Shown here: piece by piece, positions 1,099 to 30,950 of the stretch
How the letters are laid out: each line of letters starts with the position of its first letter
How positions within the stretch are numbered: position 1 is the stretch's first letter
NCBI GenBank assembly: GCA_964623985.1
Contig: CAZUXG010000002.1
Coordinates: 17,106 to 81,105 of the forward strand
Origin: an uncultured Thermodesulfobacteriota bacterium
GTDB taxonomy: Bacteria; Desulfobacterota; Anaeroferrophillalia; Anaeroferrophillales; Tharpellaceae
DNA length: 64,000 nt
Reading direction: 5' to 3'
Made by a program: the position numbers and the translations under genes
Notes under the pieces: model-generated
Told to the model about the DNA's origin: nothing
Databases searched by the model: none
Seen by the model: the letters and a program-made list of their open reading frames with translations, nothing else

Positions 1099-1252
1099 CT
1101 ACCTTAAGTCTTGTGGAGCACGTAAAAAAAAGGTCAGTAAAACTCCGCCGGCAATCAAGCCGGCACAGAGTCCGAAAGCGGAATTAAAGGAACCGGTAAA
1201 ATCGGCCAAGTACCCGGCCAGAGCCGGCCCGACAATCTGACCACCACCGAAA
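1099..1252 (-). pseudogene. C-terminal remnant of an MFS transporter (about 50 codons only)
   Basis: Minus-strand translation gives GGGQIVGPALAGYLADFTGSFNSAFGLCAGLIAGGVLLTFFLRAPQDLR*, typical of the last transmembrane helices of an MFS permease. No upstream body or start codon is present. Confidence 0.4.
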
Positions 1253-1277
1253 AAAAGGTAATTTTTCGAGGTACCCT
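1251..1277 (-). repeat. Partial copy (about 26 bp) of the ~70 bp intergenic repeat family, inverted orientation
   Basis: AAAAAAGGTAATTTTTCGAGGTACCC is the reverse complement of the 5' end of the copy at 30886 (GGGTACCTCGAAAAATTATC...). Confidence 0.5.
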
Positions 1278-1286
1278 TCTTAATAA

Positions 1287-2885
1287 CTAATCAAAAGCCG
1301 CAGCCAAGAGGGTTTGCGTATAGTGGTGCTTAGGGTTTTTAAATAATTCCTCGACCGGCCCCTCTTCGACTATCCGACCCTGGTGGAGGACTATAACCCG
1401 GTGACAGAGCGCCTTGACCACTTTCAGATCATGCGAGATAAAAAGATAGGCCAGGTTATGCTTTACCTGCAGGTCTCGCAACAGGTCGAGAACCTGAGCC
1501 TGCACGGAACGGTCGAGCGAAGAGGTAGGCTCGTCGAGGACAACCAATTGCGGTTTCAAAACCAGGGCTCGGGCAATGGCGATACGCTGACGCTGACCAC
1601 CGGAAAATTCGTGCGGATAACGCCGCATGAAAGCCTCTTCCAACCCGACCTCCTGAAGAACTTCAGCGACCATTTGCCGGCGTTCAGAAACGCTTCCGAT
1701 GTGATGCAGCCTTAAACCTTCGGCAACTATCTGTTCGACGGTCATGCGGGGACTTAAACTTGCAAAAGGATCCTGAAAGACTACTTGGAAATAGCGCCGC
1801 AAAGAGCGCAGACCATGAAAACCGGGAGCTGAGATCTCCCGCCCGGCAAAACAAATCCTGCCCTCGGCCTGCAACAAACGCAACAGGGCAAAGCCCAGGG
1901 TCGATTTACCCGAACCACTCTCACCCACGACCCCTAAACTTTCACCGGGACGAATCGCCAGAGAAACCCCATCAACGGCCTTGACATAGTCGCAGGTACG
2001 CTGCAAAAAACCCTTTTTGATCGGAAACCAGACCTTTAAGTCTTCAGCTTTAAGCAGGGGGGCTTCCTGAGGATTGCAAGGAATCGGTCTACCTGAGGGT
2101 TCGGAATTCAATAGTTTTTTTGTATATGAGTGACTCGGAAAAGAAAAAATCTGTTGGCAAATACCAACCTCGACAATCCGGCCGTTGGTCATAACCGCAA
2201 CCCGATCGGCATGATGCCGGACAATGCCAAGATCATGGGTTATCAAAAGAATGGCCATGCCTAAACGTTCTTTGAGTTCGCTCAAAAGAGTAAGTACCTG
2301 TGCCTGCACCGTTACATCAAGAGCGGTCGTCAGTTCATCAGCAATCAACAGATCGGGTTCATTGGCAAGCGCCATGGCAATCATCACCCGCTGCCGCTGG
2401 CCGCCGGAGAGTTCGTGTGGATAGGCATCAAGACGTCGGCCCGCATCTTCGATACCAGCCACTTCGAGAAGCTCTTGGGTGACAGAACGCAACTCCTGCC
2501 GCCGCCCTCCACCACGATGCAGCCGCAAACTTTCACTGATCTGACGAACAATCGTATGCAACGGATTTAACGAGGTCATCGGCTCTTGAAAGATCATCCC
2601 GATACGACCGCCGCGCAGACTTTGCATCTCTTTTTCCGGCAAGTCCAGAATATTCTGACCGCCAAACATAATTCGACCAGCCCCCGGATGACTCGCCTCG
2701 GGATAGGGTAAGAGCTGTAAAATAGAGTGCGCGGTCACCGATTTCCCCGAACCGCTCTCCCCAACCAGAGCCAGGGTCTCACAGCGGTCAATCGTCAAAG
2801 AGACACGATCGACTGCCAGAACACGCTCCCCTCCGGTACCAAAGGCGACGGAAAGGTCTTTTATTGCAAGTAGATGTTCGACCAT
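1287..2885 (-). CDS. ABC transporter ATP-binding protein with two fused ABC ATPase domains (YejF/DppDF-like)
   Basis: 532 aa ORF with two Walker A motifs (GESGSGKS twice), two ABC signature motifs (LSGGQRQR twice) and two Walker B regions. No permease or substrate-binding genes are adjacent. Confidence 0.85.
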   Translation of the reverse strand: MVEHLLAIKDLSVAFGTGGERVLAVDRVSLTIDRCETLALVGESGSGKSVTAHSILQLLPYPEASHPGAGRIMFGGQNILDLPEKEMQSLRGGRIGMIFQEPMTSLNPLHTIVRQISESLRLHRGGGRRQELRSVTQELLEVAGIEDAGRRLDAYPHELSGGQRQRVMIAMALANEPDLLIADELTTALDVTVQAQVLTLLSELKERLGMAILLITHDLGIVRHHADRVAVMTNGRIVEVGICQQIFSFPSHSYTKKLLNSEPSGRPIPCNPQEAPLLKAEDLKVWFPIKKGFLQRTCDYVKAVDGVSLAIRPGESLGVVGESGSGKSTLGFALLRLLQAEGRICFAGREISAPGFHGLRSLRRYFQVVFQDPFASLSPRMTVEQIVAEGLRLHHIGSVSERRQMVAEVLQEVGLEEAFMRRYPHEFSGGQRQRIAIARALVLKPQLVVLDEPTSSLDRSVQAQVLDLLRDLQVKHNLAYLFISHDLKVVKALCHRVIVLHQGRIVEEGPVEELFKNPKHHYTQTLLAAAFD

Positions 2886-3233
2886 CGGAGCTTACGGTGA
2901 TCCCCAAAAGTTGGACAATGTGTTAAGCTATAGATCACTCACAAATTAAGGAGATGATCATAAACAAAAAAAGAACAGCATTAAGAAATTATTTTATATT
3001 TCGAATCCCGGCCTGCAGTTTAACAATACAAAAAGTTGTCTAGACGGTGGGGTTCACCTTAATGCTTTGAAAGAACTCTAATTAAAACCAAATAAAATCG
3101 CAAATAAAATCACCAACAAAAACAGAACACAAATCAAACGGACTTTTTTTAATGACATCAAGGTTGGAGAAGTTTGTCGATTTGATAGAAATTCGAAATT
3201 TCCGAATTTTCTCATCGTTAAAACGCTAATCAC

Positions 3234-4277
3234 TCAAATAATAATCCCGCCACCCAGTAGCCGGTCACCGTGATAGAAAGCGGCCCCCTGCCCTGGGGTT
3301 ATGGCGAATTGGGGGGATACAAACTCAATTTCAGCCTGGCCATCAGCCCGCCGATTAAGGATAGCCAAACCCGGCTCATGACGATAACGAATCCGACACT
3401 CTATTTCAAGAGGTTGAGAAGGCGGCTCAATCAACCAATTAATCTGGTTAACTTTAAAACGGCAACTATAAGCCTCTTCCCGCTTACCTACCAGAAGACG
3501 GTTATCTTGATAATCGAGTTTAATCACATAGAGGGGCTCGGGATTTGCGATCCCCAAACCCCGACGTTGACCAATCGTGTAATTCTGCAGGCCGTGATGT
3601 TCTCCCCGCACGCGACCCTGGCTGTCGACAATCTTGCCGCGACCGCTGATCACGCCCCGCCGCACAAGAAACTCCTGGTACCTTTCACCGTTAAGAAAAC
3701 ATAGTTCCTGACTCTCCCGGTAATTGTCAAGCTCATAACCCGCCTCAGCCGCCAGAATCAGAGCCTTATCCTTACAGACCTCTCCCAAAGGGAAGAGACT
3801 TCGCTGCAATAGCTTTTCCGGTACTGAAAAAAGAAAATAACTCTGGTCTTTACGTTTGTCGCAAGCTTTAAGAAAAGTAACTTCGGACTTATTCGAAACC
3901 CCGGCGAATCGCCGAAAATAGTGCCCGGTGGCCAGCTTCTCAATCTTTAAACGCTCGGCGACCATTGCCAGACAAGCAAATTTAACCAGAGCATTGCAAC
4001 GAATACAGGGATTCGGGGTTTGGGCATGGGTATAAGCAAAAAGCAGATATTCAACCACTTCTTTTGAAAAAGCCTCGACCGCCGGTTCAACCAGTAACTC
4101 AAGCCCCAGCCGGATAGCCATATTTGATGCTCGCTCCAACAAAAAAGAAGTATCCGCTCCCCCCAGATCAAGGACGACAGGAATCACTTGATAACCTTGT
4201 TGCTTAAGCAAAACGGCGGCCGCCGCGCTGTCGACGCCGCCGCTAAAACCCAAAACCACGCTCTTTACTTTAGTCAT
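3234..4277 (-). CDS. mnmA: tRNA-specific 2-thiouridylase MnmA
   Basis: 347 aa. N-terminal PP-loop VVLGFSGGVDSAAAA and the overall MnmA architecture through the C-terminal domain. Confidence 0.85.
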   Translation of the reverse strand: MTKVKSVVLGFSGGVDSAAAAVLLKQQGYQVIPVVLDLGGADTSFLLERASNMAIRLGLELLVEPAVEAFSKEVVEYLLFAYTHAQTPNPCIRCNALVKFACLAMVAERLKIEKLATGHYFRRFAGVSNKSEVTFLKACDKRKDQSYFLFSVPEKLLQRSLFPLGEVCKDKALILAAEAGYELDNYRESQELCFLNGERYQEFLVRRGVISGRGKIVDSQGRVRGEHHGLQNYTIGQRRGLGIANPEPLYVIKLDYQDNRLLVGKREEAYSCRFKVNQINWLIEPPSQPLEIECRIRYRHEPGLAILNRRADGQAEIEFVSPQFAITPGQGAAFYHGDRLLGGGIII

Positions 4278-4766
4278 TTATTTTGATTTGCCTCTGAAAT
4301 TCGCTCTATTTTCATTTATTATTTTACAAAGCCTTCATAATTCCTTTTTAAAAATACAGTAGATAATAAAAAAAGGGAACCAATTTAAGCTCAACTCCCT
4401 TATTCGACAGGTCTGCAGGTCCTTGAAAAATAATCGGTTTACACCAATACCGAACTACAGAAAAATCCCAATCAGACAAGTAAAAAGACAAAAGTTGCTA
4501 ATTCTCCGAATAACAATTTCTGTTTCAGACTCTCTCCCCCTCTAAAATTCGGGGCTTTTAAACACAGAAATACGAGGATACCATGACCATTTATCTTGTG
4601 CGTTAACCTCCTTATCTTTTTAAAAGCTTACCTTATCCCTTAAGAACTTTATCAAGGCGCCCTAAGTAAAGATAAAAAACCGACATTACACTGGACGCAA
4701 GCCTTGAATTTATGCTATGCCAATTCCTCATAAAAACCAACTTAATAAGTAAATCGGGGCGATATC

Positions 4767-6449
4767 ATGCTGTTGGGAATAGATGTTGGCGGTACCCATA
4801 CGGATGCGGTTATCATTGATCGTGGAGGGATAGCAGCTACGGCCAAAGTCGAGACCGACCATAGTAACCTGATCACCTCTCTTGATATGGTCTTAGAAAA
4901 GATTTTAAGTTCAGGACCCGACCAACCTATCAGCAAGATCAACCTGAGCACGACTCTGACCACCAACGCCATTGTCGGAAAGGAGCTTGAAGAGGTTGGC
5001 GTTCTCGCGGTTTCCGGTCCGGGGCTAGCAACAGATTGTTTCAACCACAATCTCGGTGAACATTTCCATCTTCTTGAAGGCTCAATCGACCATCGCGGCA
5101 ATTTACGACTAGCTTTAAATGATGTTGCCGCACGGGAAGTGGTGGCCGGCTGTCAACGCAAGCAACTCAAGGTTTTTGCCGTCGTCAGTAAATTCTCTCC
5201 CCGCAATCCTGAAATCGAACAAACTCTGGCTGAGCTCGTCTCTACACAATCCGACTTTACGACTATCGGTCATCGGATCTCCGGGCGGCTCAATTTCCCC
5301 CGACGTCTGGCAACCGCCTACTACAATACAGCTGTCTGGCGCCGCTACAACGCTTTTGCCGACGCGGTCTCCCTGAGTATCAAAAAATATAAGCTTAACG
5401 CACCACTCAATATCCTTAAAGCCGACGGGGGTACGATTAACTTTAAAAACTCCCGCAACAACCCGATCCAAACGATTCTTTCGGGTCCGGCCGCCAGTGT
5501 CATGGGAATTATCGCCTTAAGTTCAATTACCGAAGATGCCATCATTCTCGACATCGGCGGAACCACTACCGACATCGCCATTTTCGCCAACGGCGCACCC
5601 CTCCTCGAAAAAGAGGGGGTTAGTTTCGGCGGCCGGGCAACGTCGGTACGGGCCATCGGCACTCATTCGATCGGCATTGGCGGCGACTCGGCAATCACCA
5701 TCAACTCTGATGGCAAGATAATGATCGGGCCCCAACGCATGGGTCCACCAATGGCCCTTTCCGGACCGCAACCGACCCTGATTGACGCCTGCAACGTTAA
5801 AAGATTATGCAATCTCGGAAATTTTGCCAAATCTTTTAGCGGCCTAAAAGAATTGGCTGAACAAAACCAATTAACAACTGAGCAACTGGCTGATGAAGCT
5901 CTTGATACGGCGCTGAAAACCATTCAATTTGAAGCACTTAAACTTTTGGATACGATCAACCAAAGGCCGGTCTATACGGTTGAAGAAATTGTGCATGGCA
6001 AACAAATAATCCCACAACAACTCTACGTTATGGGCGGTCCGGCCGTAATTCTGGCGCCATTGCTGGGGCAGTCCTTTGACCTTGCAACCGAAGTCCCGGA
6101 CAATTATGCAGTTGCCAATGCCATCGGCGCAGCCCTGACCCGCACAACCATGGAGATTGAACTCTTCGCTGATACCGGCAAAAAAACGCTGTTGATACCT
6201 AATCTAGGTATAAAACGAAAGATAAACAGTTCCTATTCATTGAACAAAGCCCAAGACGATGGGGTTAGTGAAATAGTGAAATATCTCAAAGAAAACAATC
6301 ATCCCGAAATCAAAAATGAGGATGTCTCCGTGGTTGAGGCCGAATCTTTCAATATGGTCGACGATTATTCTGTCGGCAGTAAAACCATTCGCGTCAGTTG
6401 CCAGATTCGGCCCGGCCTCGAAAAGGATTACCTCGAGGGAATTAAATAA
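4767..6449 (+). CDS. Hydantoinase/oxoprolinase (HyuA-like, ASKHA-fold) family protein
   Basis: 560 aa. N-terminus MLLGIDVGGTHTDAVII and a second ATPase-like motif LDIGGTTTDIAIF. The stop overlaps the start region of the next gene with a 1 bp gap. Confidence 0.6.
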   Translation: MLLGIDVGGTHTDAVIIDRGGIAATAKVETDHSNLITSLDMVLEKILSSGPDQPISKINLSTTLTTNAIVGKELEEVGVLAVSGPGLATDCFNHNLGEHFHLLEGSIDHRGNLRLALNDVAAREVVAGCQRKQLKVFAVVSKFSPRNPEIEQTLAELVSTQSDFTTIGHRISGRLNFPRRLATAYYNTAVWRRYNAFADAVSLSIKKYKLNAPLNILKADGGTINFKNSRNNPIQTILSGPAASVMGIIALSSITEDAIILDIGGTTTDIAIFANGAPLLEKEGVSFGGRATSVRAIGTHSIGIGGDSAITINSDGKIMIGPQRMGPPMALSGPQPTLIDACNVKRLCNLGNFAKSFSGLKELAEQNQLTTEQLADEALDTALKTIQFEALKLLDTINQRPVYTVEEIVHGKQIIPQQLYVMGGPAVILAPLLGQSFDLATEVPDNYAVANAIGAALTRTTMEIELFADTGKKTLLIPNLGIKRKINSSYSLNKAQDDGVSEIVKYLKENNHPEIKNEDVSVVEAESFNMVDDYSVGSKTIRVSCQIRPGLEKDYLEGIK

Positions 6450-6450
6450 A

Positions 6451-7842: not shown

Positions 7843-9039
7843 ATGAAAATTCTGATTGCTGAGGATGAGAGGGTATCGAGACGCCTTTTGGAAAGTCGCC
7901 TTAAAAAATGGGGCTATGAAGTAACCGCCGCAAAAGATGGCAAAGAAGCCTGGGAGATTTTTCAGAAAGAGCATTTTTCAATGATCATCAGTGACTGGAT
8001 GATGCCGGAAATGGATGGTCTTGAGTTGTTACGGCGCATCCGCTCGATTGAACGACCCGGCTATGTTTACACCATCCTGCTGACGGCCCGCAGCGAAAAA
8101 GAGGATATTTTGGCCGGTATGGAGTCCGGAGCTGATGATTTCATCTCTAAACCTTTTGATAAAGACGAACTCCTGGCCCGGCTCAAAGTTGGGCTCCGGA
8201 TAACCGATCTTGAACGAGACCTAGCCCAACGCAACCAGGAACTGGAAAAAATCAACGATCGCATGCGACGTGACCTCCAGGCGGCGGCTAAGATTCAACA
8301 GTCCCTGTTACCAACTCAGCTGCCGACCTGCGAAAAAGTCAACTTTGCCTGGAAATATGTCCCTTGCGACGAACTCGCCGGCGACACCTTGAACCTCTTT
8401 CATCTTGATGAAGATCATATCGGCCTCTACCTGCTTGATGTTAGTGGTCATGGCGTCCCCGCCGCCCTGCTCTCGGTCAACCTCTCCCGTATTTTAAATC
8501 CCAACCCGGAACAATCCAACCTCCTAAAAGAGCAGGTCATCGGCACTCCAGGCTACCATCTGGTTCGCCCTGAGGAGGTTGCCGACCGTCTCAACCAACG
8601 TTTCCCTTTAGACAACAGTACGGAACAGTATTTTACCATCCAGTATGGCCAATTAAATATCAAATCGGGATCCCTGACCTTTATTTCAGCCGGCCATCCA
8701 CCAATGATACATCTACAGGCCGATGGCGGCTGTCAGACCATCCAAGTCCGCAGTATGCCGATTGGTTTTATGGTTGGCGTCGGCAAGGTTTACACAGAGC
8801 AGCATCTGGACTTAAAAGATGGTGACCGCCTCTATTTCTACTCAGACGGCATTATCGAAGCCATGAACCCAGAAAGAGAGCAATTCGGGATTGAACGCCT
8901 CCTCGAAAAGCTCAACACTTCAAGAACCTTAACACTTCATGACAGCCTTGACCAACTTACCGACGAGCTTGAACACTGGACTGCAGGCCAGGGATACGGC
9001 GATGATGTTTCGCTACTCGCCCTGGAAATTAAACCTTGA
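7843..9039 (+). CDS. Response-regulator receiver domain fused to PP2C-type (SpoIIE/RsbU-like) Ser/Thr phosphatase
   Basis: N-terminal MKILIAEDE...SDWMMPEMDGLEL receiver domain with the Asp pocket. C-terminal PP2C motifs GDTLNLFHLD..., LLDVSGHGVPAAL and YSDGIIEA. Confidence 0.8.
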   Translation: MKILIAEDERVSRRLLESRLKKWGYEVTAAKDGKEAWEIFQKEHFSMIISDWMMPEMDGLELLRRIRSIERPGYVYTILLTARSEKEDILAGMESGADDFISKPFDKDELLARLKVGLRITDLERDLAQRNQELEKINDRMRRDLQAAAKIQQSLLPTQLPTCEKVNFAWKYVPCDELAGDTLNLFHLDEDHIGLYLLDVSGHGVPAALLSVNLSRILNPNPEQSNLLKEQVIGTPGYHLVRPEEVADRLNQRFPLDNSTEQYFTIQYGQLNIKSGSLTFISAGHPPMIHLQADGGCQTIQVRSMPIGFMVGVGKVYTEQHLDLKDGDRLYFYSDGIIEAMNPEREQFGIERLLEKLNTSRTLTLHDSLDQLTDELEHWTAGQGYGDDVSLLALEIKP

Positions 9040-9105
9040 TGGCGGCGCAAAAAATCCGCTCTACTGCGCCGTACCCCAAGGACACTTCCTAGGGGCGCAA
9101 AATAG

Positions 9106-9177
9106 ATTGAATATTTTGAGGATTAAAATTTGAGCCTAACACAGCTATTGGGCAAAAAGACAATTTTTTGAGGTACC
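9106..9177 (-). repeat. Full copy of the ~70 bp intergenic repeat family (inverted relative to the copies at 15202 and 30886)
   Basis: Its reverse complement, GGTACCTCAAAAAATTGTCTTTTTGCCCAATAGCTGTGTTAGGCTCAAATTTTAATCCTCAAAATATTCAAT, aligns to 30886-30950 with about 8 mismatches. Confidence 0.6.
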
Positions 9178-9309
9178 TTTTAACGAAAGCAGCAAGCCTT
9201 GACAACCGTTAAATTGGAGGTTATCCTTTGATTATAAAAAGTCACCCGATAATGAAAATAATTGACTTCGAGTGGCAAGACGGTTTTCCAATTTATTAAG
9301 GAGGTTATT

Positions 9310-9774: not shown

Positions 9775-9825
9775 CGAGAACGATTGCCGAAGAGTTCCTT
9801 GATCTACAAACCACTAAATAAAAAA

Positions 9826-9865
9826 AGAAGGGTGATGGAGTTAAACTCCATCACCCTTCTTTTTA
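9826..9865. terminator. Bidirectional rho-independent terminator between convergent hsp20 and the hotdog-domain gene
   Basis: AGAAGGGTGATGGAG-TTAAA-CTCCATCACCCTTCT, a perfect 15 bp stem, is flanked by an A-run upstream and a T-run downstream. Confidence 0.7.
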
Positions 9866-11279: not shown

Positions 11280-12659
11280 ATGTTGTTTCAACAATTTAAA
11301 GTCGAAGGTCTTAGCTGTTTATCGTATATGATCGGCTGTCCGCAAGCGGGCCGCGCCTTTGTCGTTGACCCCAAACGGGATATCGACGACTATTTAAAGG
11401 CGGCCCAGATCAATAAATTAAAAATCACCGGAATTATTGAAACTCATGTCCATGCCGACCATATTTCAGGAGCCTCCGAGCTCAACCACCAGACCGGTGC
11501 CCCAATCCATATCGGAGCCGGCTCACCGGTTGACTATGATCATCTGCCCCTCCATGACGGTGATGAAATTATTATCGGCAATGCCAAAATAAGAGTCGTT
11601 GCAACCCCGGGCCATACCCCTCACTCGATATCTTTGGCAATCTCTGATTTAATTCGTGGCGATCTTGTCGAGATGCTGTTAACCGGCGACCTTCTCTTTG
11701 TCGGTAGTATCGGTCGTCCAGATTTAGCCGGTGGCGAACTAATAGAAGAGCAGATCCGAAATGCTTATCACAGCTTGCGGGTGAAACTCGATGAATTTCC
11801 TGACTATGTAGAAGTCTATCCCGCCCATGGGGCGGGCTCACTCTGTGGTGCCGGAATCAGTGCCAAGCCTTCATCTACTTTAGGCTTTGAACGCCGAACC
11901 AACCATTTCCTACAACTTGATTTTGAAGATTTCAGGAAACAACTGAGTCAGAACACACCACATCGGCCAATCAACTTCAACCACATCATTAGCACCAACT
12001 TGCAAGGCGCAAAACTTACTGAAGAGTTACCGGCAATAAGTGAATACAAACCGCTAACCTGCAAAAAATTTCTAGAGGCCGACCCGAACAAGCTGCTCAT
12101 TGACCTAAGGGAGGCGACCGCCTTTGGCGGTGCACATATCCCCGGCAGTTTCAATATCGGCATGGCCCCAAACTCCGCCACTTGGATGGGAAATGTGGTC
12201 AAACCGGAGAGTGAACTCCTGCTTTTGGCCAATAATCATCAGGAAATCAAAGATGCCACAACCATGTTCCGCCGAGTCGGCTACGACCATATCAAAGGCT
12301 ACATCATCGGCTTAAGCAGCTGGATTTTAGCGGCTGAGAAGACCGGATTTCTACCCCAGATCACCGTCCATTCCCTGCACCATGTACTCGAAAAATACAG
12401 TAATCATATGGTTTTAGATGTCCGCAATAAGCAAGAGTGGCGAGCTGGCCACATCGAAAAGGCCGAACATCTACCGCTACCGGAACTTATCAATCGAGGT
12501 TTCAACAACAATCTCGAGCAGCACATCAGTGTCATTTGCATGTCCGGTTACCGTTCCAACATCGCCGCCTCAATCCTTAAACAGCGGGGCTATAAAAATG
12601 TCTACAGCGTCATTGGCGGCATGAGTACCTGGAAAGCCGCCGGTTATAAACATGCTTAA
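11280..12659 (+). CDS. MBL-fold metallo-hydrolase fused to two rhodanese domains (persulfide dioxygenase / sulfurtransferase-like)
   Basis: HVHADHISGA metallo-beta-lactamase motif. C-terminal rhodanese with active-site CMSGYRS. Start placed at the ATG with a GGAGG RBS. Confidence 0.7.
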   Translation: MLFQQFKVEGLSCLSYMIGCPQAGRAFVVDPKRDIDDYLKAAQINKLKITGIIETHVHADHISGASELNHQTGAPIHIGAGSPVDYDHLPLHDGDEIIIGNAKIRVVATPGHTPHSISLAISDLIRGDLVEMLLTGDLLFVGSIGRPDLAGGELIEEQIRNAYHSLRVKLDEFPDYVEVYPAHGAGSLCGAGISAKPSSTLGFERRTNHFLQLDFEDFRKQLSQNTPHRPINFNHIISTNLQGAKLTEELPAISEYKPLTCKKFLEADPNKLLIDLREATAFGGAHIPGSFNIGMAPNSATWMGNVVKPESELLLLANNHQEIKDATTMFRRVGYDHIKGYIIGLSSWILAAEKTGFLPQITVHSLHHVLEKYSNHMVLDVRNKQEWRAGHIEKAEHLPLPELINRGFNNNLEQHISVICMSGYRSNIAASILKQRGYKNVYSVIGGMSTWKAAGYKHA

Positions 12660-15008: not shown

Positions 15009-15024
15009 TGGCCTGTTTGTTGCG
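15009..15024 (+). promoter_or_regulatory. Candidate sigma-54 (-24/-12) promoter reading toward the hypothetical gene at 15261
   Basis: TGGCCTGTTTGTTGCG has GG and GC at the canonical spacing (TGGCAC-N5-TTGC). It lies divergent from the sigma-54 activator gene. Confidence 0.4.
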
Positions 15025-15201
15025 ATTTTATCACACATTTAGTGAGGTGACAACCTGAGCAGCAGTACCATTTCCCTGAGCAAAGTTCTTAACGATTCCG
15101 AGTATCAAGAAATTGACAATTTCTGCAGCACCCATCAAGGAATTGAAATGCTCAAGAAAAACTTGACTTTACACCCCCCACACCATATAGACCTCCGCCA
15201 G

Positions 15202-15250
15202 AGTACGTCTAAAAATTACCTTTTTGCCCAATAGCTACGTTAGGCTCAAA
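15202..15250 (+). repeat. Copy (about 48 bp) of the intergenic repeat family
   Basis: AGTACGTCTAAAAATTACCTTTTTGCCCAATAGCTACGTTAGGCTCAAA aligns with 30888-30936. Confidence 0.55.
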
Positions 15251-15260
15251 AAAATCATCC

Positions 15261-16028
15261 ATGAATACACCCTCTGATACATATATCTGTCCAGTCACCA
15301 AGCTAACAATTCTCAACAAACCGGAATGGAACAATATTGGGTTTGGCAATGACTATAAAATTTCAGTAGAAATTATCAACGAACAGATTTTGGTCACCCA
15401 TAATTCCGGCACACCCACCTTATATGACACTCAAAACGCCTTGCACTTCACAACCCATATTATCGAAAATTTTTTAGTTGATCGCCCCTACATTCATATT
15501 TTTGATTACAACGGAGTCAAACAAAGGTTCCCCCTTGAAGCCCGCCGTCTAGCCATTAAGGATATAAGCAAACGGAAGCGGATGCTGGCAGCAATCTTCT
15601 ATGGGCTTATACCGTCGATAAAATTAAGCATAAAAATTGGTCGCTTTTTCCACCAATTTCCCTTTCCCTGCCTGCTGGTAAGAAACTACACCGAGGCCAT
15701 GGAAACGACCCTGACAATCCTCAACGATAGTGAAAGAAATCCGCTTATTGTTGAAAAAAAGAAAGCTCTGGATTGTGAAACGGAAAAATTAATTAAAGAC
15801 CTCACGCAAAGAAAGCTCTCCTCTTGTAATGCCGATGCCACCCCTTTTGATCAAACAATTGAGTTGATTGAAGATGAAATTCAATATCTTGAAGAGAAAG
15901 TAAGTAAAACTCGCCGAGTAAATACCTTGATCCGGCTGGACAAGATTATCAGCAGCAGAAATGAAAAATCCAGAACCTATTGGAACAGTCTGCGGCCAAG
16001 TTCCAGAGCAAGACTGAAAAATGAATAA
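15261..16028 (+). CDS. Hypothetical protein (AT-rich gene, coiled-coil C-terminal half)
   Basis: 255 aa ORF with no motif I recognise. Notably lower GC than its neighbours, and no clear RBS. Confidence 0.5.
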   Translation: MNTPSDTYICPVTKLTILNKPEWNNIGFGNDYKISVEIINEQILVTHNSGTPTLYDTQNALHFTTHIIENFLVDRPYIHIFDYNGVKQRFPLEARRLAIKDISKRKRMLAAIFYGLIPSIKLSIKIGRFFHQFPFPCLLVRNYTEAMETTLTILNDSERNPLIVEKKKALDCETEKLIKDLTQRKLSSCNADATPFDQTIELIEDEIQYLEEKVSKTRRVNTLIRLDKIISSRNEKSRTYWNSLRPSSRARLKNE

Positions 16029-16074: not shown

Positions 16075-16460
16075 ATCGCTTTGGATGAAGTGACATGGTC
16101 AAGTAAAAATGGACACTTTTCTTAGGCTGCTTTGCTCTTAACCATCATTTTTTCAAAATCTTTTGGGCTCATATATCCCAGATATGAGTGACGGCGTTTG
16201 CGGTTATAGAACATTTCGATATAATCGACTATATCCCGTCGAGCTGACTCCCTGGTTTTATATTGGGAACCATGCACCCGTTCGGTTTTCAGACTACCAA
16301 AAAAACTTTCCGCTACACTATTATCCCAGCCGTGCCCTTTGCGACTCATGCTGCTGATCATGTCGTACTTCTTCAACTCTTTTTGAAAATCATGACTACA
16401 ATACTGGCTGTCTCTATCAGAATGAAAGATGAGCCCGGCCTCCGACAATCTCCATTAATT
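16075..16460 (-). mobile_element. IS3-family transposase remnant (C-terminal part of OrfB integrase core only)
   Basis: Translation LIFHSDRDSQYCS...DNSVAESFFGSLKTERVH...YIEMFYNRKRRHSYLGYMSPKDFE is the IS3 DDE-domain C-terminus. The N-terminal half and OrfA are absent. Confidence 0.7.
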
Positions 16461-24403: not shown

Positions 24404-24408
24404 AATTT

Positions 24409-25402: not shown

Positions 25403-26185
25403 ATGAAAATCGCAATTTCAGGTAAAGGCGGGGTCGGTAAAACCACATTAGCCGGAACCCTGGCCCGGATCATAGCCGCCAGCGAGCATAAAGTCCTGGC
25501 AATCGACGCCGACCCCGATGCCAATCTCGCCTCGGCCCTCGGTTTCAGTCTCGACGAAGTCAATAAAATCACTCCGTTTGCCAAGATGACCGACTTTATC
25601 CAAGAACGCACCGGATCACAAAAGGGAACCTACGGAGGCATGTTCAAACTCAATCCTAAAGTCGACGATATTCCCGAACGCTTCAGCCTCAGCCGCGAAA
25701 ACCTAAAACTTCTGATTCTCGGCACTATCCCTGAAGGCGGCGGCGGCTGCTACTGCCCGGAGAGCGTCATCTTGAAATTCCTACTGCGCCATATCCTCCT
25801 ACAACGTGACGAAAGTATTATTCTAGACATGGAAGCCGGCCTTGAACACTTAGGGCGCGGGGCCACCAAAGGAATTGATGCTTTTATCGTCGTCGTCGAA
25901 CCCGGCTCACGCAGTCTGCAAACCGCAAGGCAAATCAAAAAACTGGCGGCTGATCTTGGCATCAATCAGGTCTATGTCGTCGGCAACAAAGTTTGCGAAC
26001 CCGGTGACCGGGAGTTCATCACCAACAATCTTGAGGACATAGAAATTCTTGGTTTCCTCGATTACGACCAAGCAATCGTTGCCGCTGATCGACGTGATCA
26101 GGCCCCTTTTGAAGTCAACCCCAAAATTGTCGAAAATGTTAAAAGTATCTATGCCAATTTACAAAATGCATTGGCAACTTCTTAA
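25403..26185 (+). CDS. cooC: CooC/AcsF-type nickel-insertion P-loop ATPase (MinD/ParA superfamily)
   Basis: MKIAISGKGGVGKTT Walker A, AIDADPDANLA, the CxC metal motif GGGCYCPE, and DMEAGLEHLGRG. No CODH or ACS gene is present in the window. Confidence 0.75.
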   Translation: MKIAISGKGGVGKTTLAGTLARIIAASEHKVLAIDADPDANLASALGFSLDEVNKITPFAKMTDFIQERTGSQKGTYGGMFKLNPKVDDIPERFSLSRENLKLLILGTIPEGGGGCYCPESVILKFLLRHILLQRDESIILDMEAGLEHLGRGATKGIDAFIVVVEPGSRSLQTARQIKKLAADLGINQVYVVGNKVCEPGDREFITNNLEDIEILGFLDYDQAIVAADRRDQAPFEVNPKIVENVKSIYANLQNALATS

Positions 26186-26225
26186 CCCGGCGTAGCCAAA
26201 ACCAAATAGGCAATTTATTATTGCA

Positions 26226-26288
26226 CCACAAAGACACGAAATGCACGAAGAAAGGCTTTTTAACTTCGTGACCTTCGTGTCTTTGTGG
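26226..26288. terminator. Long nested palindrome or hairpin between convergent genes (candidate bidirectional terminator or protein-binding site)
   Basis: CCACAAAGACACGAA ... TTCGTGTCTTTGTGG is a perfect 15 bp inverted repeat enclosing a 7 bp inner inverted repeat (CACGAAG/CTTCGTG). An A-run follows on the plus strand. Confidence 0.35.
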
Positions 26289-26355
26289 TAAAAAAATCTT
26301 CTGCCATTTTTTATGTATTCTTAAAAAAAGTTTCGGGATGGCGAAATAAAAACAA

Positions 26356-26604
26356 TCAAATCCCTCGCTGCCGGCACTCCGGGCTACAGTAATAACGTCC
26401 CGAGTCACGCCAACCACCGGTAAGAGCTTCCTTTTCCGGAACATAAAGACCGCACACCGAACATTTGACCATCTTTTCACCTCGTCCCGAAGCTGGAGAG
26501 GAGTTTTCTGAGCCAGTCATCTTTACGTCATTAACCGATGGCCGACCTTTAAAAAGACGAAAAAAAAGATAACCCAACCCAACCCACAGTAAAAATCTAA
26601 ACAC
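26356..26604 (-). CDS. Small membrane-anchored TRASH/YHS-type metal-binding zinc-finger protein
   Basis: 82 aa. N-terminal hydrophobic helix, then CSVC-X21-CSPEC, the TRASH pattern C-X2-C-X19-22-C-X3-C. Its start lies 10 bp downstream of the AsmA-family gene's stop. Confidence 0.55.
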   Translation of the reverse strand: MFRFLLWVGLGYLFFRLFKGRPSVNDVKMTGSENSSPASGRGEKMVKCSVCGLYVPEKEALTGGWRDSGRYYCSPECRQRGI

Positions 26605-26613
26605 TTAGACAAC

Positions 26614-29600
26614 CTATTTTTTATCTATTTCTGCAGCTGTTCCAGAACCATCTTTGGCCCCTACCTGATTTAACAATTTTCCCGGCATTCGCAACAACCT
26701 TACCGGAGTCTTAAAAAACCTCTGAATCATGCTTATGGCTTTTTTGCCCAGTCCGGAAACCGTCTGTGTTTTAATCTTTATGTCATCTAACGGCCCCCGA
26801 GCCGTCATCGGGATCACGACAAAGGTTTTTTTGTCTCCAGTCATGATATAACCGACCACCGGAATCGTGGCAAGCAGTTTATCAACCGTCTGTAACGGAT
26901 GCACCCCAATCTCAAGATCAACCCAATCATCGACCAGAGAGATCAACCCACTACTCAAAAGGTTAAACGCTGGCCCCCGCAGGGCAAACTCTTCGACCTC
27001 TAAAACCCCATCGACAATTGTCCCCTTACCATAAAGCGTTTGATAAGGAACCCCTTGATCAATACTGAACTTCGGTAAACGTAAAGCTGCAAACTGCGAC
27101 AGGTTAAGCAAAGAACAGACATTAGCCACCATGGTAAATTTTTTCAGGCGACCATCATGAAAATTAAAATCGAGTTGGCCATCCAGACTCTCTTCCCAAC
27201 TTTTCAAGGATTTTCCCTGCCAGTCAAGATTGAAATTCACTGAGCCATACCCCCCCAGCATTGGCAAACCACGATCAGGGTTTTTCAAGTAATCATTTAA
27301 GGTTTCAAAATTAATCTCCGCCAACTCGGAATCAACCATAAAATAATCATCATCATAACGCCATTGAGCTGAGGCATAGAGGTCTCCACCGAAACTGCGG
27401 CCGACAAATTTTTCGAAATTGACCCCCAAGGCATCGAAAGAGCAATCACACTCAATCTCATCAATCGTCATCTGCTGCCAACGTAAACTTTGGGCCCGGG
27501 CACTGATATGAAGATTATGACGAGCCAGTATTTCTTTCCAGGATAACAAAGTCTCTACCCGATCCGCCTTAACCTCCTGGGCCAGTTCATTAAGCAGGGC
27601 CACCTTAACCTTACCAGCATTCCGCAGACCGGCTTGCGGTTCCTCTTCTACGCCCTCATCCTTGGGCTCCGGTCGACTAAAAAGAGCATCAAGGTCAAGA
27701 TCCTTAACTGCAACCTCAAGTTCACCATCCAACCCTTCAAAAGAACGCAATTCACCCGAAACACTGACTTGTGATTCCTGCTCACCCCAACGCCAGCGAC
27801 ACTCTTTAATCTTAACTACCGTTTCCGGTCCACCCGAAAAGGAAAATGTAAAATCATTGAAAGATTGCCAAGGCGCTCTTTGGATCGAAGTATTTCCAGG
27901 CCCACTATCAGCTGGCAACAATAACTCTTTGATGGCCCCCTCAAGGTTAACTTTTAAACCCGGCAACCTTTGAGTTTCCTTCTCCTCTTCAGATTTCACC
28001 TCTGTAATAGAGGCTCCGCCCGAGGCGGTTCCGGACTCCGGCTCAGTGATAACCTCTTTGCCGGAAACCGTTTTGGGCAAAGGCAGAAAATCATCCACCA
28101 GAAAACGGGTACCGGTGATCTGTCCATTCAGAACATAGCCCAAGCCCGCTCCAGACTTACTCAGGTCACCCTTGAAAGAAAGATCGGACTCACCCCGTTT
28201 AAGAAGTAAATGTTTGAAATCTATGCTTTCCCAATCAAAATCAGCCAAACAATTCAGACTCTCAAAAGATTGCTCTATAAAAGGCAGTTCAACATCACTC
28301 CAATCCAGATGCAACGTACCCTGCAATTGCAGGTCGGGAAAATGCCTGAGATCACCAGTCAGACGCAGATCTAACGGTGATGGCCCAACCCTGACCCCGC
28401 TGACGGGAAACTGCTGACCCAACAAAAAGTCGAGATGTTCGGGACTGAATTCCCGGCAGTGGGCAGTAAGTTTAATTTGCGGATCGTGGTAGAGTTTTCG
28501 CAAAGAAGCATTTACAGCCTCTCCCGAGAGACCGTTCCAGGAAAAATCGAAATCTGAGACCTCAAGAGAATCACTTTCAAGGACTGCACGACAATCCCCA
28601 ATTGCCAGAAGAGGCCAATCATCAGCAATCTTGAAAAGCAGATTTTTCCCTTTAAGTTGGCCGCCAATAACTCCTGATGGTGGATTTTTTTCAGCCAACC
28701 GGACAATCCTCCGGTAATCGCCTTTCAAATAGGCATTTTCAACAACACAGCGCCCTCCCCTTTGTAAGGATTGATAATAACTCCTCATTTTTTCAGGCAT
28801 GACCTTCCAGGGAAGGAGCTGGAAAACCGTTAAGGGATCAAATTCAGGGATTTCAAGTCCCGCCTCAATCGTACCATCGATACCGCACCGGGCTTCATGT
28901 AGTAAACAATGACCCATAAGTTTTAAACCATCGGCATCAATCGTACACTTTAGTGTCTCGATTGTATTATAGCGATCGGCCAAACGAAAATCATAATCAA
29001 CCAAAAAATGATTAAATTTTAATTTCTGACTGAAAACCTGTTGGTAATCAAGTTCGGCCTGATGTAGTACGATACGGCCGGAAGACCTGAACAAACCCAT
29101 CAGATTACCCCTATAAGTTGAGTCAATGTCAACCCGGGCCCCGATAAATCGCATCGGTACATATTTCTGATAGTAAGGAAAGTAGGTCGCCGCATTAAGA
29201 TTTTCGGCGTCGACCTGACAATCCAGAAACATCTGGTCAGGACACAACGGCCACCGTAAAGCCGACAAGCTCCCCTCAATATTCAAGGAACCATCACCTT
29301 GTTTATCAACTACCCGGGCCGTCAATGTAAATTCAGCTGGAGCTCCAAACTTGTGCCATTCAAAAAGAGAGTTTAACTCTTCCAAATGAGTCAGGATCGG
29401 TGACCTCCCTAAACCGTGGTCCGTAAAAACCACCGAGCCATCAATAATCTCCACCAACGCTTGACTTACATCGGCATCAAAACGCCATGCCCTGAAAAAA
29501 CCTATTGACTCTCTGCGGCCAACATTTTCACCAAGATAATCGGTAAGTCTTTCAGGAAGAACTTTAACGGTTTTACACTTATTTTTAGGATTTGTAAGGA

Positions 29601-30000
29601 CTGCAGCAGGGCGCAGAAAACCGACCAATGGGAAAATAGCCGTATCGTCCTGCAAAACAACCCGGGGCTGCACCAAGGTCACCCGACAAAGATGGAAACG
29701 GCGCTTAAATAACCGCTTAAGATCAAAATTGATGATCGCGGTTGCCACTGAAATCTGCTGCACTCCGGATTTGTCAAACACTCGTATACCATCTACACGA
29801 AGGCCTGGACCATTCCGAAAAGTCAACTTCAATTTACCAACGGCAACCTCTCCCGAGATCCGGGACTCCATATATGCGAGCAGCTGAGGCCGGAAATTTT
29901 CCAAATCAATCAGATTCGGAAGGCTGATAAGCAGTAAAAAAAAGCCCAGCAAGGCCAAAGCCCCGATTCTGGAGATAAGCCGCCAGCCCCATTTATGCAT
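26614..30000 (-). CDS. AsmA-family (YhdP/TamB-like) outer-membrane biogenesis/lipid transport protein
   Basis: 1128 aa. N-terminal signal-anchor MHKWGWRLISRIGALALLGFFLL followed by AsmA-like beta-rich repeats. Confidence 0.7.
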   Translation of the reverse strand: MHKWGWRLISRIGALALLGFFLLLISLPNLIDLENFRPQLLAYMESRISGEVAVGKLKLTFRNGPGLRVDGIRVFDKSGVQQISVATAIINFDLKRLFKRRFHLCRVTLVQPRVVLQDDTAIFPLVGFLRPAAVLTNPKNKCKTVKVLPERLTDYLGENVGRRESIGFFRAWRFDADVSQALVEIIDGSVVFTDHGLGRSPILTHLEELNSLFEWHKFGAPAEFTLTARVVDKQGDGSLNIEGSLSALRWPLCPDQMFLDCQVDAENLNAATYFPYYQKYVPMRFIGARVDIDSTYRGNLMGLFRSSGRIVLHQAELDYQQVFSQKLKFNHFLVDYDFRLADRYNTIETLKCTIDADGLKLMGHCLLHEARCGIDGTIEAGLEIPEFDPLTVFQLLPWKVMPEKMRSYYQSLQRGGRCVVENAYLKGDYRRIVRLAEKNPPSGVIGGQLKGKNLLFKIADDWPLLAIGDCRAVLESDSLEVSDFDFSWNGLSGEAVNASLRKLYHDPQIKLTAHCREFSPEHLDFLLGQQFPVSGVRVGPSPLDLRLTGDLRHFPDLQLQGTLHLDWSDVELPFIEQSFESLNCLADFDWESIDFKHLLLKRGESDLSFKGDLSKSGAGLGYVLNGQITGTRFLVDDFLPLPKTVSGKEVITEPESGTASGGASITEVKSEEEKETQRLPGLKVNLEGAIKELLLPADSGPGNTSIQRAPWQSFNDFTFSFSGGPETVVKIKECRWRWGEQESQVSVSGELRSFEGLDGELEVAVKDLDLDALFSRPEPKDEGVEEEPQAGLRNAGKVKVALLNELAQEVKADRVETLLSWKEILARHNLHISARAQSLRWQQMTIDEIECDCSFDALGVNFEKFVGRSFGGDLYASAQWRYDDDYFMVDSELAEINFETLNDYLKNPDRGLPMLGGYGSVNFNLDWQGKSLKSWEESLDGQLDFNFHDGRLKKFTMVANVCSLLNLSQFAALRLPKFSIDQGVPYQTLYGKGTIVDGVLEVEEFALRGPAFNLLSSGLISLVDDWVDLEIGVHPLQTVDKLLATIPVVGYIMTGDKKTFVVIPMTARGPLDDIKIKTQTVSGLGKKAISMIQRFFKTPVRLLRMPGKLLNQVGAKDGSGTAAEIDKK

Positions 30001-30160
30001 AAGACAATCCCGGCACCAACAACGAAACCCGTTTTAAGCACTTTTTAGGTCCACAATCAATCATCGTAAATCATTACCACTGACCAACATCTTTTTGAAG
30101 TTAAAAGTCACTAAGAATAATTTTTCTAGTTTTCCAACTAAAACAAACTTTTTTACAAAT

Positions 30161-30868
30161 TCAACGCCGCACCCGGGCCAAGGTTACGGAACTGACCGAG
30201 GCTGCACCGGCACTTTTCAGAACGCTCGCGGCAGAGCTCAAGGTCGCCCCGGTAGTCAAAACATCATCACACAACAAAATATTTCTTCCAGCTATCCTTT
30301 CCGGCTCCGAAACCTGAAAAATATCCGGCCTCACGTTGAGAGCCCGAGCCCGACGATTCAAAGATGCTTGTTGCGGAGTATCGATGGTTTTGACCAGGAG
30401 GTTATGGCCTAAAGGCTGCTTGAAAAATTCGGAACAACAAGAAGCAATAAAAAACGCCTGGTTAAAACCTCGCTTTCGTAAAGCAGCTTTGAAAAGAGGT
30501 ATTGCGATAACCAGATCGAAAACTAACCCTGAGGATTCCTGACGGGATAAAACCAGCCCCATCAGAACCTTGACCAAAGGGAAAAACTCTTGCCGGTTAT
30601 GATATTTCCAGGCTGGAATGATTTTTTCGAGAGGACCGGAATAGAGATAGCCGGAAAGAACTTTATCAACCTCAGACAACCAAACAGCATCAAGACTTTC
30701 TTCGCAACTTTGCAACTGCTGCCGGCATGAAACACAAAGATAGTTTTCTAGAACTTGATTCTTGGTTGGATAACTTAAGGGGTGAGAGAGGAAAACGGAA
30801 CAAACCAAGCAACGGCGAGGAAAAATGATATTGAGAAGAGCGGTGGCAAAAGCGAAAAGATCAGTCAC
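30161..30868 (-). CDS. comF: ComF/GntX-family phosphoribosyltransferase-domain protein
   Basis: N-terminal CxxC...CxxC zinc-finger (CLVC...CVSC) and C-terminal PRTase motif ILLCDDVLTTGATL. Confidence 0.75.
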   Translation of the reverse strand: MTDLFAFATALLNIIFPRRCLVCSVFLSHPLSYPTKNQVLENYLCVSCRQQLQSCEESLDAVWLSEVDKVLSGYLYSGPLEKIIPAWKYHNRQEFFPLVKVLMGLVLSRQESSGLVFDLVIAIPLFKAALRKRGFNQAFFIASCCSEFFKQPLGHNLLVKTIDTPQQASLNRRARALNVRPDIFQVSEPERIAGRNILLCDDVLTTGATLSSAASVLKSAGAASVSSVTLARVRR

Positions 30869-30885
30869 TTATTTAGGGTACCTCG

Positions 30886-30950
30886 AAAAATTATCTTTGG
30901 GCCCGATAGCTACGTTAGGTTCAAATTTTAATCCTCAAAATATTCAATAT
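30886..30950 (+). repeat. Full copy of the ~70 bp intergenic repeat family
   Basis: GGGTACCTCGAAAAATTATCTTTGGGCCCGATAGCTACGTTAGGTTCAAATTTTAATCCTCAAAATATTCAAT. Near-identical copies lie at 9106-9177 (inverted) and 15202-15250, with a partial copy at 1251-1277. Confidence 0.6.

What the first reader, a model, noticed from the sequence alone, without database searches (positions are those of the whole stretch)
1251..30950. Previously unrecognised ~70 bp intergenic repeat family (four copies in 30 kb)
Nearly identical 48-72 bp elements lie at 9106-9177 (inverted), 15202-15250 and 30886-30950, with a 26 bp partial copy at 1251-1277. The full copies share over 85% identity across GGTACCTCGAAAAATTATCTTTGGGCCCGATAGCTACGTTAGGTTCAAATTTTAATCCTCAAAATATTCAAT. 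All copies are intergenic: next to the MFS remnant and yejF, between the RR-PP2C gene and hsp20, in the leader of the sigma-54-associated hypothetical gene, and between comF and gpmI. They carry no ORF and no long hairpin, so they are not classic REP or terminator elements. They could be a MITE-like mobile repeat, a conserved sRNA or a multi-copy regulator-binding module.
Basis: seen in the sequence. Interest (0 to 1): 0.55.

Follow-up and report, generated by a model that had tools for sequence, protein, structure and literature searches.

The report
Small mobile repeat (MITE) family
The repeat is real and is a roughly 142-base non-coding "jumping" DNA element (a MITE) specific to one uncultured sulfate-reducer-type lineage; three of the four window copies are broken stubs at deletion or recombination scars, so it is an ordinary kind of element in a newly seen family.

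Summary
The four repeats exist and are far beyond chance, but the unit is about 142 bp, not about 70 bp. Copy C (30876-31017) is a complete element. A relative with 90% gpmI identity has the same gpmI-comF spacer without it: CCACTAAATAAGTG against CCACTAAA[142 bp]TAAATAAGTG. That is a precise insertion with a 4-bp (possibly 5-bp) target duplication. Its ends are imperfect inverted repeats (GGGTRYYYYGAAAAATTR). A second full copy (167 nt) lies just outside the window in the same species. A third (141 nt) lies at an unrelated locus in a related MAG whose gpmI-comF site is empty. Copies A, B and D are truncated and all keep the same GGGTACC end. B sits at a ~2.2-kb deletion junction. D abuts the last 50 codons of an MFS gene. 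A is fused to one end of a second MITE-like family (45342-45494) through a shared ~30-nt module. No ORF, no Rfam match, no covariation and no promoter-like site were found. Verdict: a lineage-specific, non-autonomous transposable element (MITE-like), a new member of a known kind. The mobilising transposase was not identified. Interest is low to moderate.

The parts
30876..31017 (+). Copy C: the complete 142-nt element ('R'), between the gpmI terminator and the comF start codon
   Evidence: It is absent from the orthologous spacer of L007 (gpmI 90% identical) and of L008/L009. It matches the MAG copy over 139 nt at 85% and F over its whole length. The termini match 14/18 with one gap.
30872..30875 (.). 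Left copy of the target-site duplication, TTTA (TAAA on the gene strand)
   Evidence: The empty site in L007 has a single TAAA, and the window has one on each side of the element. It could be 5 bp (CTAAA) if the terminal C belongs to the target.
31018..31021 (.). Right copy of the target-site duplication, TTTA
9069..9178 (-). Copy A: 110 nt of the long variant of R, keeping the GGTACC end and including the ~30-nt internal module at 9069-9098
   Evidence: 88% identity to F over 111 nt and the alignment. R is absent from the orthologous spacer in L012/L013, L011, L014, L017 and L022.
9038..9068 (+). E45-type terminal inverted repeat (GATGGCGGCGCAAAAAATCC...) fused to copy A; it starts inside the RR-PP2C stop codon
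   Evidence: It matches window 45442-45503 at 76-77%. The same TIR sits at the same stop codon in L011, L012, L014 and L022.
15201..15250 (+). Copy B: a 50-nt stub of the GGGTACC end at a deletion junction
   Evidence: It lies between a remnant of the first ~33 codons of a FAD-oxidase gene (about 15058-15148) and the native start of ORF255. L011 has about 2.2 kb (FAD oxidase plus a hexapeptide-repeat gene) between these points.
1252..1276 (-). Copy D: a 25-nt stub of the GGGTACC end, joined directly to the last 50 codons of an MFS gene
   Evidence: 24/24-26 nt match at 88-96% and E 1e-4. The MFS C-terminal remnant is translated. The junction is identical in a second assembly of the same species (L019).
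30921..30948 (+). 28-nt core, TCAAATTTTAATCCTCAAAATATTCAAT, identical in C, A (9106-9133) and the MAG copies, with one change in F
   Evidence: Alignments; coordinates. Its function is unknown (possibly a subterminal transposase-binding site; this is inference).
45342..45494 (.). E45: a 153-nt element of a second MITE-like family, with 26-nt TIRs that are 92% complementary. It shares the ~30-nt module (45433-45465) with the long R variant.
   Evidence: I10; fold z-scores of -5.2 and -6.3; related copies in L011 5351-5477 and L007 7914-8037.
31021..31059 (-). gpmI terminator hairpin, next to which R inserted (context only, not part of the element)
   Evidence: The hairpin is conserved in L007, where it is followed directly by the comF start.

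Best explanation
The repeats are copies of a lineage-specific, non-autonomous transposable element (a MITE, here called R). R is 141-167 nt long, AT-rich and non-coding. It has imperfect ~18-bp terminal inverted repeats (GGGTRYYYYGAAAAATTR). It inserts at T/A-rich sites (TTTA/TAAA) and duplicates 4 (possibly 5) bp. It is presumably moved in trans by a DDE-type transposase encoded elsewhere in the genome; that step is inferred, and no partner was found. In the window only copy C is intact. A, B and D are stubs that keep the GGGTACC end and have lost the other end through deletion or recombination with an endpoint inside the element. B lost it together with ~2.2 kb of neighbouring genes. D lost it together with most of an MFS gene. 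A recombined with a resident element of a second MITE family through a shared ~30-nt module. Shown: the repeat family, precise insertion with duplication at one site, inverted termini, presence/absence between relatives at two sites, and truncation junctions. Inferred: the transposase class, how the truncations arose, and any effect on neighbouring genes.
For: 1) Empty and filled sites: L007 reads CCACTAAATAAGTG, and the window reads CCACTAAA[142 nt]TAAATAAGTG. L008/L009 also lack the element. 2) The MAG that lacks it at that site carries a 141-nt copy between a permease gene and a receiver ORF at an unrelated locus. 3) A further full-length copy, F (167 nt), lies between Tex and an FMN reductase gene in the same species. 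4) Matches anchored at the termini are 14/18 (C, one gap), 13/18 (MAG copy) and 11/18 (F); the chance of >=13/18 is about 4e-5. 5) The flanking 4-mers are TTTA/TTTA, TTTA/ATTA and TTCA/TTTA. 6) Site A is R-free in five relatives, including one at 94% protein identity. 7) The flanks of all copies are unrelated, so this is not a segmental duplication. 8) The element's GC content is 34-40% against 47% for the window. 9) The element is an imperfect foldback (41 predicted pairs) with no covariation, as expected for a MITE. 10) There is no conserved ORF, no Rfam hit and no promoter-like site.
Against: No autonomous element with matching ends was found in about 247 kb of window plus related loci, and the genome and metagenome scans were exhausted, so the transposase family is unknown. 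The TIRs are short and imperfect. An exact target duplication backed by an empty site exists for one copy only; the other two full copies match 3 of 4. Exact-core scans of public collections found only one other locus, so copy number and spread are poorly known. Three of three truncated copies keep the same end, which simple random deletion does not predict (p about 0.25, so weak).
Confidence: 0.78

Rival explanations
1. The copies are miniature or solo ends of a larger transposon family. One example would be Tn3-family-derived elements (TIME-like) with a 5-bp AT-rich duplication and one-ended events that give a constant end and variable inner endpoints.
For: The duplication at site C can be read as 5 bp (CTAAA). 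The ends start with GGG, the targets are AT-rich, and three stubs share one constant end. TIMEs give 5-6-bp AT-rich duplications (PMC4133298).
Against: TIMEs are defined by IRs of about 38 bp homologous to Tn3-family ends. Here inverted similarity stops after about 18 nt. A 4-bp reading makes the termini symmetric (GGGT...ACCC) and a 5-bp reading does not. The stubs sit at junctions where relatives show host DNA has been lost, which fits deletion better than one-ended insertion. No Tn3-type transposase or resolvase was seen in the window.
Confidence: 0.1
2. The element is moved by a single-strand HUH/Y1 transposase (IS200/IS605-type, PATE-like). It inserts 3' of TTTA without duplication, and the second TTTA is the element's own end.
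For: A 4-bp 'duplication' cannot formally be told apart from insertion 3' of TTTA by an element that ends in TTTA. C and F both end ...CACCCTTTA. There are small local hairpins near both ends.
Against: The termini are inverted repeats set at equal distances from both ends, which IS200/IS605 ends are not. The left flanks vary (TTTA, TTCA, TAAA, AGAA, GCCA). No TnpA/TnpB gene was seen in the window or loci.
Confidence: 0.06
3. The repeat encodes a multi-copy small RNA or cis-regulatory RNA.
For: The copies are intergenic. In four cases (C, A, F and the MAG copy) the GGTACC end points at the 5' end of the next gene, 0-132 nt away. There is a 28-nt invariant core.
Against: There is no Rfam match at gathering thresholds or at E<=1. 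Fold z-scores are only -1.4 and -1.9. None of 41 pairs has a compensatory change. There is no sigma-70-like promoter and no terminator inside the element. Copies are truncated at arbitrary points. The insertion is recent and absent from close relatives.
Confidence: 0.03
4. The repeat is a multi-copy binding module for a regulator or nucleoid protein, kept by selection at promoters.
For: The 28-nt invariant AT-rich core stands out against about 82-87% identity elsewhere. Several copies lie upstream of genes.
Against: The neighbouring genes are functionally unrelated (comF, hsp20, an FMN reductase, a receiver, a deleted FAD-oxidase operon). The position relative to promoters is inconsistent: at hsp20 the element lies upstream of the conserved promoter-like TTGACA...TATCCT sequence. 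Orthologous promoters in relatives work without it.
Confidence: 0.03

Closest known systems
Bacterial MITEs (for example Correia/NEMIS, RUP, ERIC, MITEAba12, Nezha)
   Same: R is small (141-167 nt), non-coding and AT-rich. It has terminal inverted repeats, a short target duplication, a foldback structure and dispersed intergenic copies. It shows insertion polymorphism between relatives, lies close to gene starts, and has variants built from shared modules.
   Different: There is no sequence similarity to any described family in the plasmid collection, Rfam or the text search of papers. The TIRs are short and imperfect. No parent IS has been identified. Most copies in this window are truncated stubs at rearrangement junctions.
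[quoted passage not shown]
   Same: Both are non-autonomous, have GGG-initial ends, insert into AT-rich targets and form mosaics.
   Different: TIMEs are about 262 bp with IRs of about 38 bp homologous to Tn3-family ends, give 5-6-bp duplications, and are usually single-copy. R has about 18-bp inverted termini, a duplication best read as 4 bp, and at least five copies in about 79 kb.
REP/BIME elements and RAYT-associated palindromes
   Same: Both are intergenic, repeated and able to form hairpins.
   Different: REPs are palindromes of about 20-40 nt without target duplication, usually arranged in clusters. R is a 142-nt unit with a defined insertion footprint. Only the ~30-nt internal module shared by R-long and E45 resembles a REP-sized palindrome, and that was not tested.

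Membership tests
MITE (non-autonomous TIR element) | Small size and no coding capacity | tested here: met
   The element is 141-167 nt. Two of three frames on the reverse strand carry stops, and the one open frame of about 41 codons has 13/41 replacements between C and the MAG copy at 85% nucleotide identity, so there is no sign of purifying selection (my reading of the sequences).
MITE (non-autonomous TIR element) | Terminal inverted repeats | tested here: met
   Matches anchored at the termini are 14/18 (C, one gap), 13/18 (MAG copy) and 11/18 (F). The binomial chance of >=13/18 is about 4e-5. The TIRs are short and imperfect.
MITE (non-autonomous TIR element) | Target-site duplication shown against an empty site | tested here: met
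   At site C there is one TAAA in L007 and one on each side of the 142-nt insert in the window. F and the MAG copy have flanking 4-mers matching 3 of 4, but no empty site was available for them.
MITE (non-autonomous TIR element) | Multiple copies at unrelated loci, with presence/absence between relatives | tested here: met
   There are five copies in about 79 kb of this species and one in the related MAG at a different locus. Sites C and A are empty in relatives.
MITE (non-autonomous TIR element) | A cognate autonomous IS with matching ends that supplies the transposase | not testable with these tools
   None was found in the window or in 22 loci.
TIME (Tn3-derived MITE) | IRs of about 38 bp homologous to Tn3-family IRs | tested here: not met
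   Inverted similarity between the two ends does not extend beyond about 18 nt. The definition is taken from PMC4133298.
TIME (Tn3-derived MITE) | 5-bp AT-rich target duplication | tested here: inconclusive
   Site C can be read as 4 bp (TAAA) or 5 bp (CTAAA). F and the MAG copy fit 4 bp slightly better.
IS200/IS605-derived PATE | No TIRs, subterminal hairpins, and insertion 3' of a fixed tetranucleotide without duplication | tested here: not met
   The termini are inverted repeats, and the left flanks vary among copies. The insertion footprint alone cannot exclude this family.
REP/BIME | An imperfect palindrome unit of 20-40 nt, without target duplication | tested here: not met
   The unit is 142 nt and has an insertion footprint.
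Known RNA family (Rfam 15) | Covariance-model match | tested here: not met
   There were no hits at gathering thresholds over the window or at E<=1 over C and F.

The most novel reading that the evidence does not exclude
R belongs to a modular, interacting set of miniature elements in this lineage. A ~30-nt hairpin module is shared between two otherwise unrelated MITE families (R-long and E45) and a larger palindrome in the related MAG, and it acts as a recombination or mobility unit of its own. R copies are preferred breakpoints for gene-deleting rearrangements that always spare the GGGTACC end. One possible cause is asymmetric cleavage by the transposase at the other end, followed by resection and microhomology joining. 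If so, these elements would be active drivers of gene loss rather than passive passengers.
Probability: 0.2. Interest if true: 0.45.

Novelty: new member of a known kind. Interest (0 to 1): 0.25.

Why it matters
The finding adds a previously undescribed MITE family, and a second one next to it, in an uncultured Thermodesulfobacteriota-type lineage known only from metagenomes. In practice, these elements explain several local oddities in the window: an MFS stub, a decapitated FAD-oxidase operon whose sigma-54 promoter now sits in front of ORF255, and the long hsp20 and comF leaders. They also give markers for strain typing and for assembly breaks in these MAGs. Conceptually this is a routine case of selfish DNA. 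Only the pattern of same-end stubs at deletion junctions, and the module shared between families, go slightly beyond routine.

Tried and rejected
(1) I tested whether the repeat is the tail or head of a coding sequence. The similarity between C and the MAG copy first looked synonymous, and one frame runs in-frame into a receiver-domain ORF in the MAG. I rejected this because all copies carry in-frame stops, replacements are frequent, and the receiver ORF is simply truncated at the element. (2) Sigma-54 promoter inside the repeat: rejected by inspection, because the real TGGC-N7-TTGC motif lies at 15009-15023, upstream of B. (3) Viral contigs: the two hits to the 21-mer lie inside an unrelated coding region and are chance matches. 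(4) Exact-core scans of the genome and metagenome collections returned only one other locus, in three assemblies. The core pattern was too strict to catch diverged copies such as F, so copy number remains unknown. (5) blastn of R and E45 against plasmids found nothing. (6) A full-text search for the end sequences returned only unrelated primers. (7) I looked for a transposase with matching ends in the window. The only transposase trace is an IS3-type rve remnant at 16122-16448, and it is not flanked by R ends. (8) Two lookups returned nothing: P0132, and my ORF call for 43701-45290. (9) Covariation analysis is underpowered, with four sequences and 0 of 41 compensatory pairs.
Full report
OBSERVATION. 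The repeat finder pairs 9101-9177 with 30877-30953 (77 nt, 88%, inverted), 15200-15250 with 30875-30925 (51 nt, 84%), and 1252-1277 with both (88-96%). Two sub-patterns searched with up to three mismatches gave only these sites, and none of 100 dinucleotide shuffles gave a match. A three-sequence nhmmer profile scores the copies at E = 5e-27, 1e-26, 3e-16 and 1e-4, with nothing else below 0.3. The window is part of ENA metagenome contig ERZ27316679 k141_138190.

THE UNIT IS LONGER THAN REPORTED. An exact-core scan of 185,579 species genomes found one locus (L002, a Thermodesulfobacteriota MAG, assembly CAYWGC01). A scan of JGI metagenomes found the same locus twice more (L003, L004). Viral hits to a 21-mer lie in an unrelated coding region and are chance matches.

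EMPTY SITE. I took gpmI orthologs and fetched their contigs. In L007 (gpmI 90% identical), the gpmI terminator hairpin is followed by ...CCACTAAATAAGTGACTGAT, where GTG is the comF start. The window reads ...CCACTAAA[GGGTGTTTTTGAAAAATTAG ... CGAGGTACCC]TAAATAAGTGACTGAT. Copy C is therefore a precise 142-nt insertion (30876-31017) flanked by a duplicated TAAA. It appears as TTTA on the + strand, at 30872-30875 and 31018-31021. It can also be read as 5 bp (CTAAA). L008/L009, from the MAG that carries the L002 copy, have only 11 nt between gpmI and comF. So each species has the element where the other lacks it.

ENDS. Reading inward from both termini gives GGGTACCTCGAAAAATTA and GGGTGTTTT(T)GAAAAATTA. 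That is 14/18 matches with one gap in C, 13/18 in the MAG copy and 11/18 in F. The chance of 13/18 or more, anchored at the termini, is about 4e-5. The element has 34-40% GC against 47% for the window.

A FIFTH COPY. A lookup of the ABC ATPase found a JGI contig of the same species (L019, 99.7% identical to the window contig where they overlap) that runs past the window's left edge. It carries a full-length copy F (L019 9400-9566, 167 nt) between a Tex gene and an FMN reductase gene. Its flanks are TAAA and TGAA. F equals R plus an internal module of about 26-30 nt (GCGCCCGCAGGAAGTGCCCTTGGGGT). A six-sequence profile run over 247 kb of window plus loci found no further copies.

THE OTHER WINDOW COPIES ARE STUBS. 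All three keep the GGGTACC end.

Copy A. When compared with F, the homology runs 9069-9178 (88% over 111 nt) and includes the module. The last 31 nt (9038-9068) are instead the terminal repeat of a different element family, E45, and begin inside the RR-PP2C stop codon. Relatives show what was at this site before. L011 (89%) has a complete 127-nt E45-type element at the same stop codon. L022 (94%) has another E45-type variant. L012/L013 (91%) and L014 (86%) keep only a solo TIR. None of them has R. The window's own E45 (45342-45494) carries the same module just inside its right TIR. A is therefore best read as a recombinant between a resident E45-type element and a long R copy, joined at the shared module. 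This is an inference.

Copy B. Window positions from about 15058 to 15148 encode ...SLSKVLNDSEYQEIDNFCSTHQGIE. This is the N-terminus of a FAD-linked oxidase that is intact in L011 (MSTNTIPLTKVLSDLEYQEIDDFCNAHQGIE...). After about 50 nt comes the 50-nt R stub (15201-15250), followed by the native upstream sequence and start of ORF255. The L011 ortholog of ORF255 lies 2.2 kb further on, behind the oxidase and a hexapeptide-repeat gene. B therefore marks a deletion with one endpoint inside R. The conserved sigma-54 promoter (TGGCCTGTTTGTTGC, 15009-15023) now precedes the stub and ORF255.

Copy D. The 25-nt stub (1252-1276) is joined directly to the last 50 codons of an MFS transporter (1099-1251, minus strand), between the ABC ATPase stop codon and a P-type ATPase gene. 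Short A/T runs at the B and D junctions suggest microhomology-mediated joining; this is my own reading of the sequences.

WHAT IT IS NOT. Rfam gives nothing for the whole window at gathering thresholds, and nothing at E<=1 around C and F. ARAGORN finds nothing. Folding of C gives z = -1.4 and -1.9 on the two strands. RNAalifold on four full copies draws a 41-pair foldback with no compensatory change. That is what an inverted-repeat element looks like, and it is not evidence for a structured RNA, although four sequences give little power. No sigma-70-like promoter or terminator lies inside C. No reading frame is conserved. The copies' flanks are unrelated, so this is not a segmental duplication.

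MECHANISM. The best-supported account is a non-autonomous TIR element mobilised in trans, which inserts at TTTA-like sites with a 4-bp duplication. Insertion, termini, duplication and polymorphism are shown. The transposase is inferred, and its family is open. The only transposase trace in the window is an IS3-type rve remnant (16122-16448) that has nothing to do with R's ends. TIMEs (Tn3-derived) share the GGG start and AT-rich targets but are defined by IRs of about 38 bp (PMC4133298), which R lacks. An IS200/IS605-type mechanism cannot be excluded from the footprint alone, but it does not fit inverted termini. In co-directional gene pairs (gpmI-comF, RR-PP2C-hsp20, and permease-receiver in the MAG), the element always has the same orientation relative to transcription. 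Three cases are too few to interpret.

COMPARISON AND NOVELTY. R behaves like classic bacterial MITEs. No similarity to plasmid records or to published sequences was found. I rate it a new member of a known kind. Three points go slightly beyond routine. First, all three stubs keep the same end and sit at deletion or recombination junctions. Second, a ~30-nt module is shared by R-long, E45 and a larger palindrome in the MAG (L014 around 11950-12110). Third, an E45-type TIR is conserved at one stop codon across five species while the interior differs in each. All three rest on few cases.

LIMITS. An exact duplication backed by an empty site is available for one copy only.

Noticed in passing
window 45342-45494: A second MITE-like family (E45), 153 nt long, lies between an AMP-binding enzyme gene and argJ. 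Its 26-nt terminal inverted repeats are 92% complementary (GATGGTGTCGTAAAAATTTCGATATA), and its fold z-scores are -5.2 and -6.3. Related copies are at L011 5351-5477 and L007 7914-8037. No obvious target duplication was seen.
   Followed up: partly
window 9038-9057; L011 ~5351; L012 ~6826; L014 ~11196; L022 ~3017: An E45-type terminal repeat (GATGGCGKCGYAAAA...) starts inside the stop codon of the RR-PP2C gene in all five species examined. The sequence behind it differs in each: a full element of two different kinds, a solo repeat, or the R hybrid in the window. This looks like an old insertion whose interior turns over.
   Followed up: partly
window 9069-9098 and 45433-45465; L019 9455-9485; L014 12075-12092: A module of about 26-30 nt (AGGAAGTGYCCTTGGGGT core) is present in the long R variant, in E45, and as one arm of a palindrome of about 190 nt in the related MAG. 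It is absent from the short R copies and from other E45-type copies. It may be a REP-sized unit with its own mobility or a recombination hotspot.
   Followed up: partly
window 15009-15148: A sigma-54 promoter (TGGCCTGTTTGTTGC, 15009-15023) is followed by a remnant of about 33 codons of a FAD-linked oxidase gene. Relative L011 has the intact oxidase plus a hexapeptide-repeat gene there. After the deletion the promoter sits in front of ORF255 (15261-16028, no Pfam match).
   Followed up: partly
window 16122-16448 (-): An IS3-type transposase C-terminal remnant (rve_2/rve_3) occupies the place where relative L011 has a class IV aminotransferase gene. This is another element-associated gene loss right next to copy B.
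   Followed up: partly
window 1099-1251 (-): Only the last 50 codons of an MFS transporter remain, wedged between the ABC ATPase and a P-type ATPase gene. The remnant is identical in a second assembly of the species (L019).
   Followed up: yes
window 26204-26310: An inverted repeat with 47-nt arms (74% complementary) lies downstream of a small zinc-ribbon ORF. At the orthologous place, relative L007 instead has a terminator hairpin followed by an E45-type element. This intergenic spacer is therefore occupied by a different palindromic element in each species.
   Followed up: partly
L003 ~3200-3552 (minus strand); same in L002 and L004: In the related MAG the R copy abuts a single-domain receiver ORF that lacks about the first 15 residues (strand beta-1 and the acidic pair) and has no start codon in frame. 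The other end of R touches the stop codons of a permease gene. The element appears to have decapitated the receiver gene.
   Followed up: partly
window 9822-9864: A perfect 21-bp hairpin (AAAAAGAAGGGTGATGGAGTT / AACTCCATCACCCTTCTTTTT) lies between the convergent hsp20 gene and a 317-aa ORF. It looks like a bidirectional terminator.
   Followed up: no
L020 10613-11100 versus L021 2037-2340: Two assemblies of the same species differ downstream of the 203-aa zinc-ribbon/bPH gene (window 62779-63390). One has an acyl-ACP thioesterase gene and the other an HNH endonuclease gene. This is strain-level variation at the right edge of the window.
   Followed up: no
samples ERZ27316679 and JGI 3300031657 (L010, L016, L004, L019, L021): The window species and the related MAG species (about 75-79% nucleotide identity in shared genes) occur together in the same two metagenomes. 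R copies of the two species are about 82% identical, the same as copies within one species. Exchange of the element or its transposase between them can be neither shown nor excluded.
   Followed up: no
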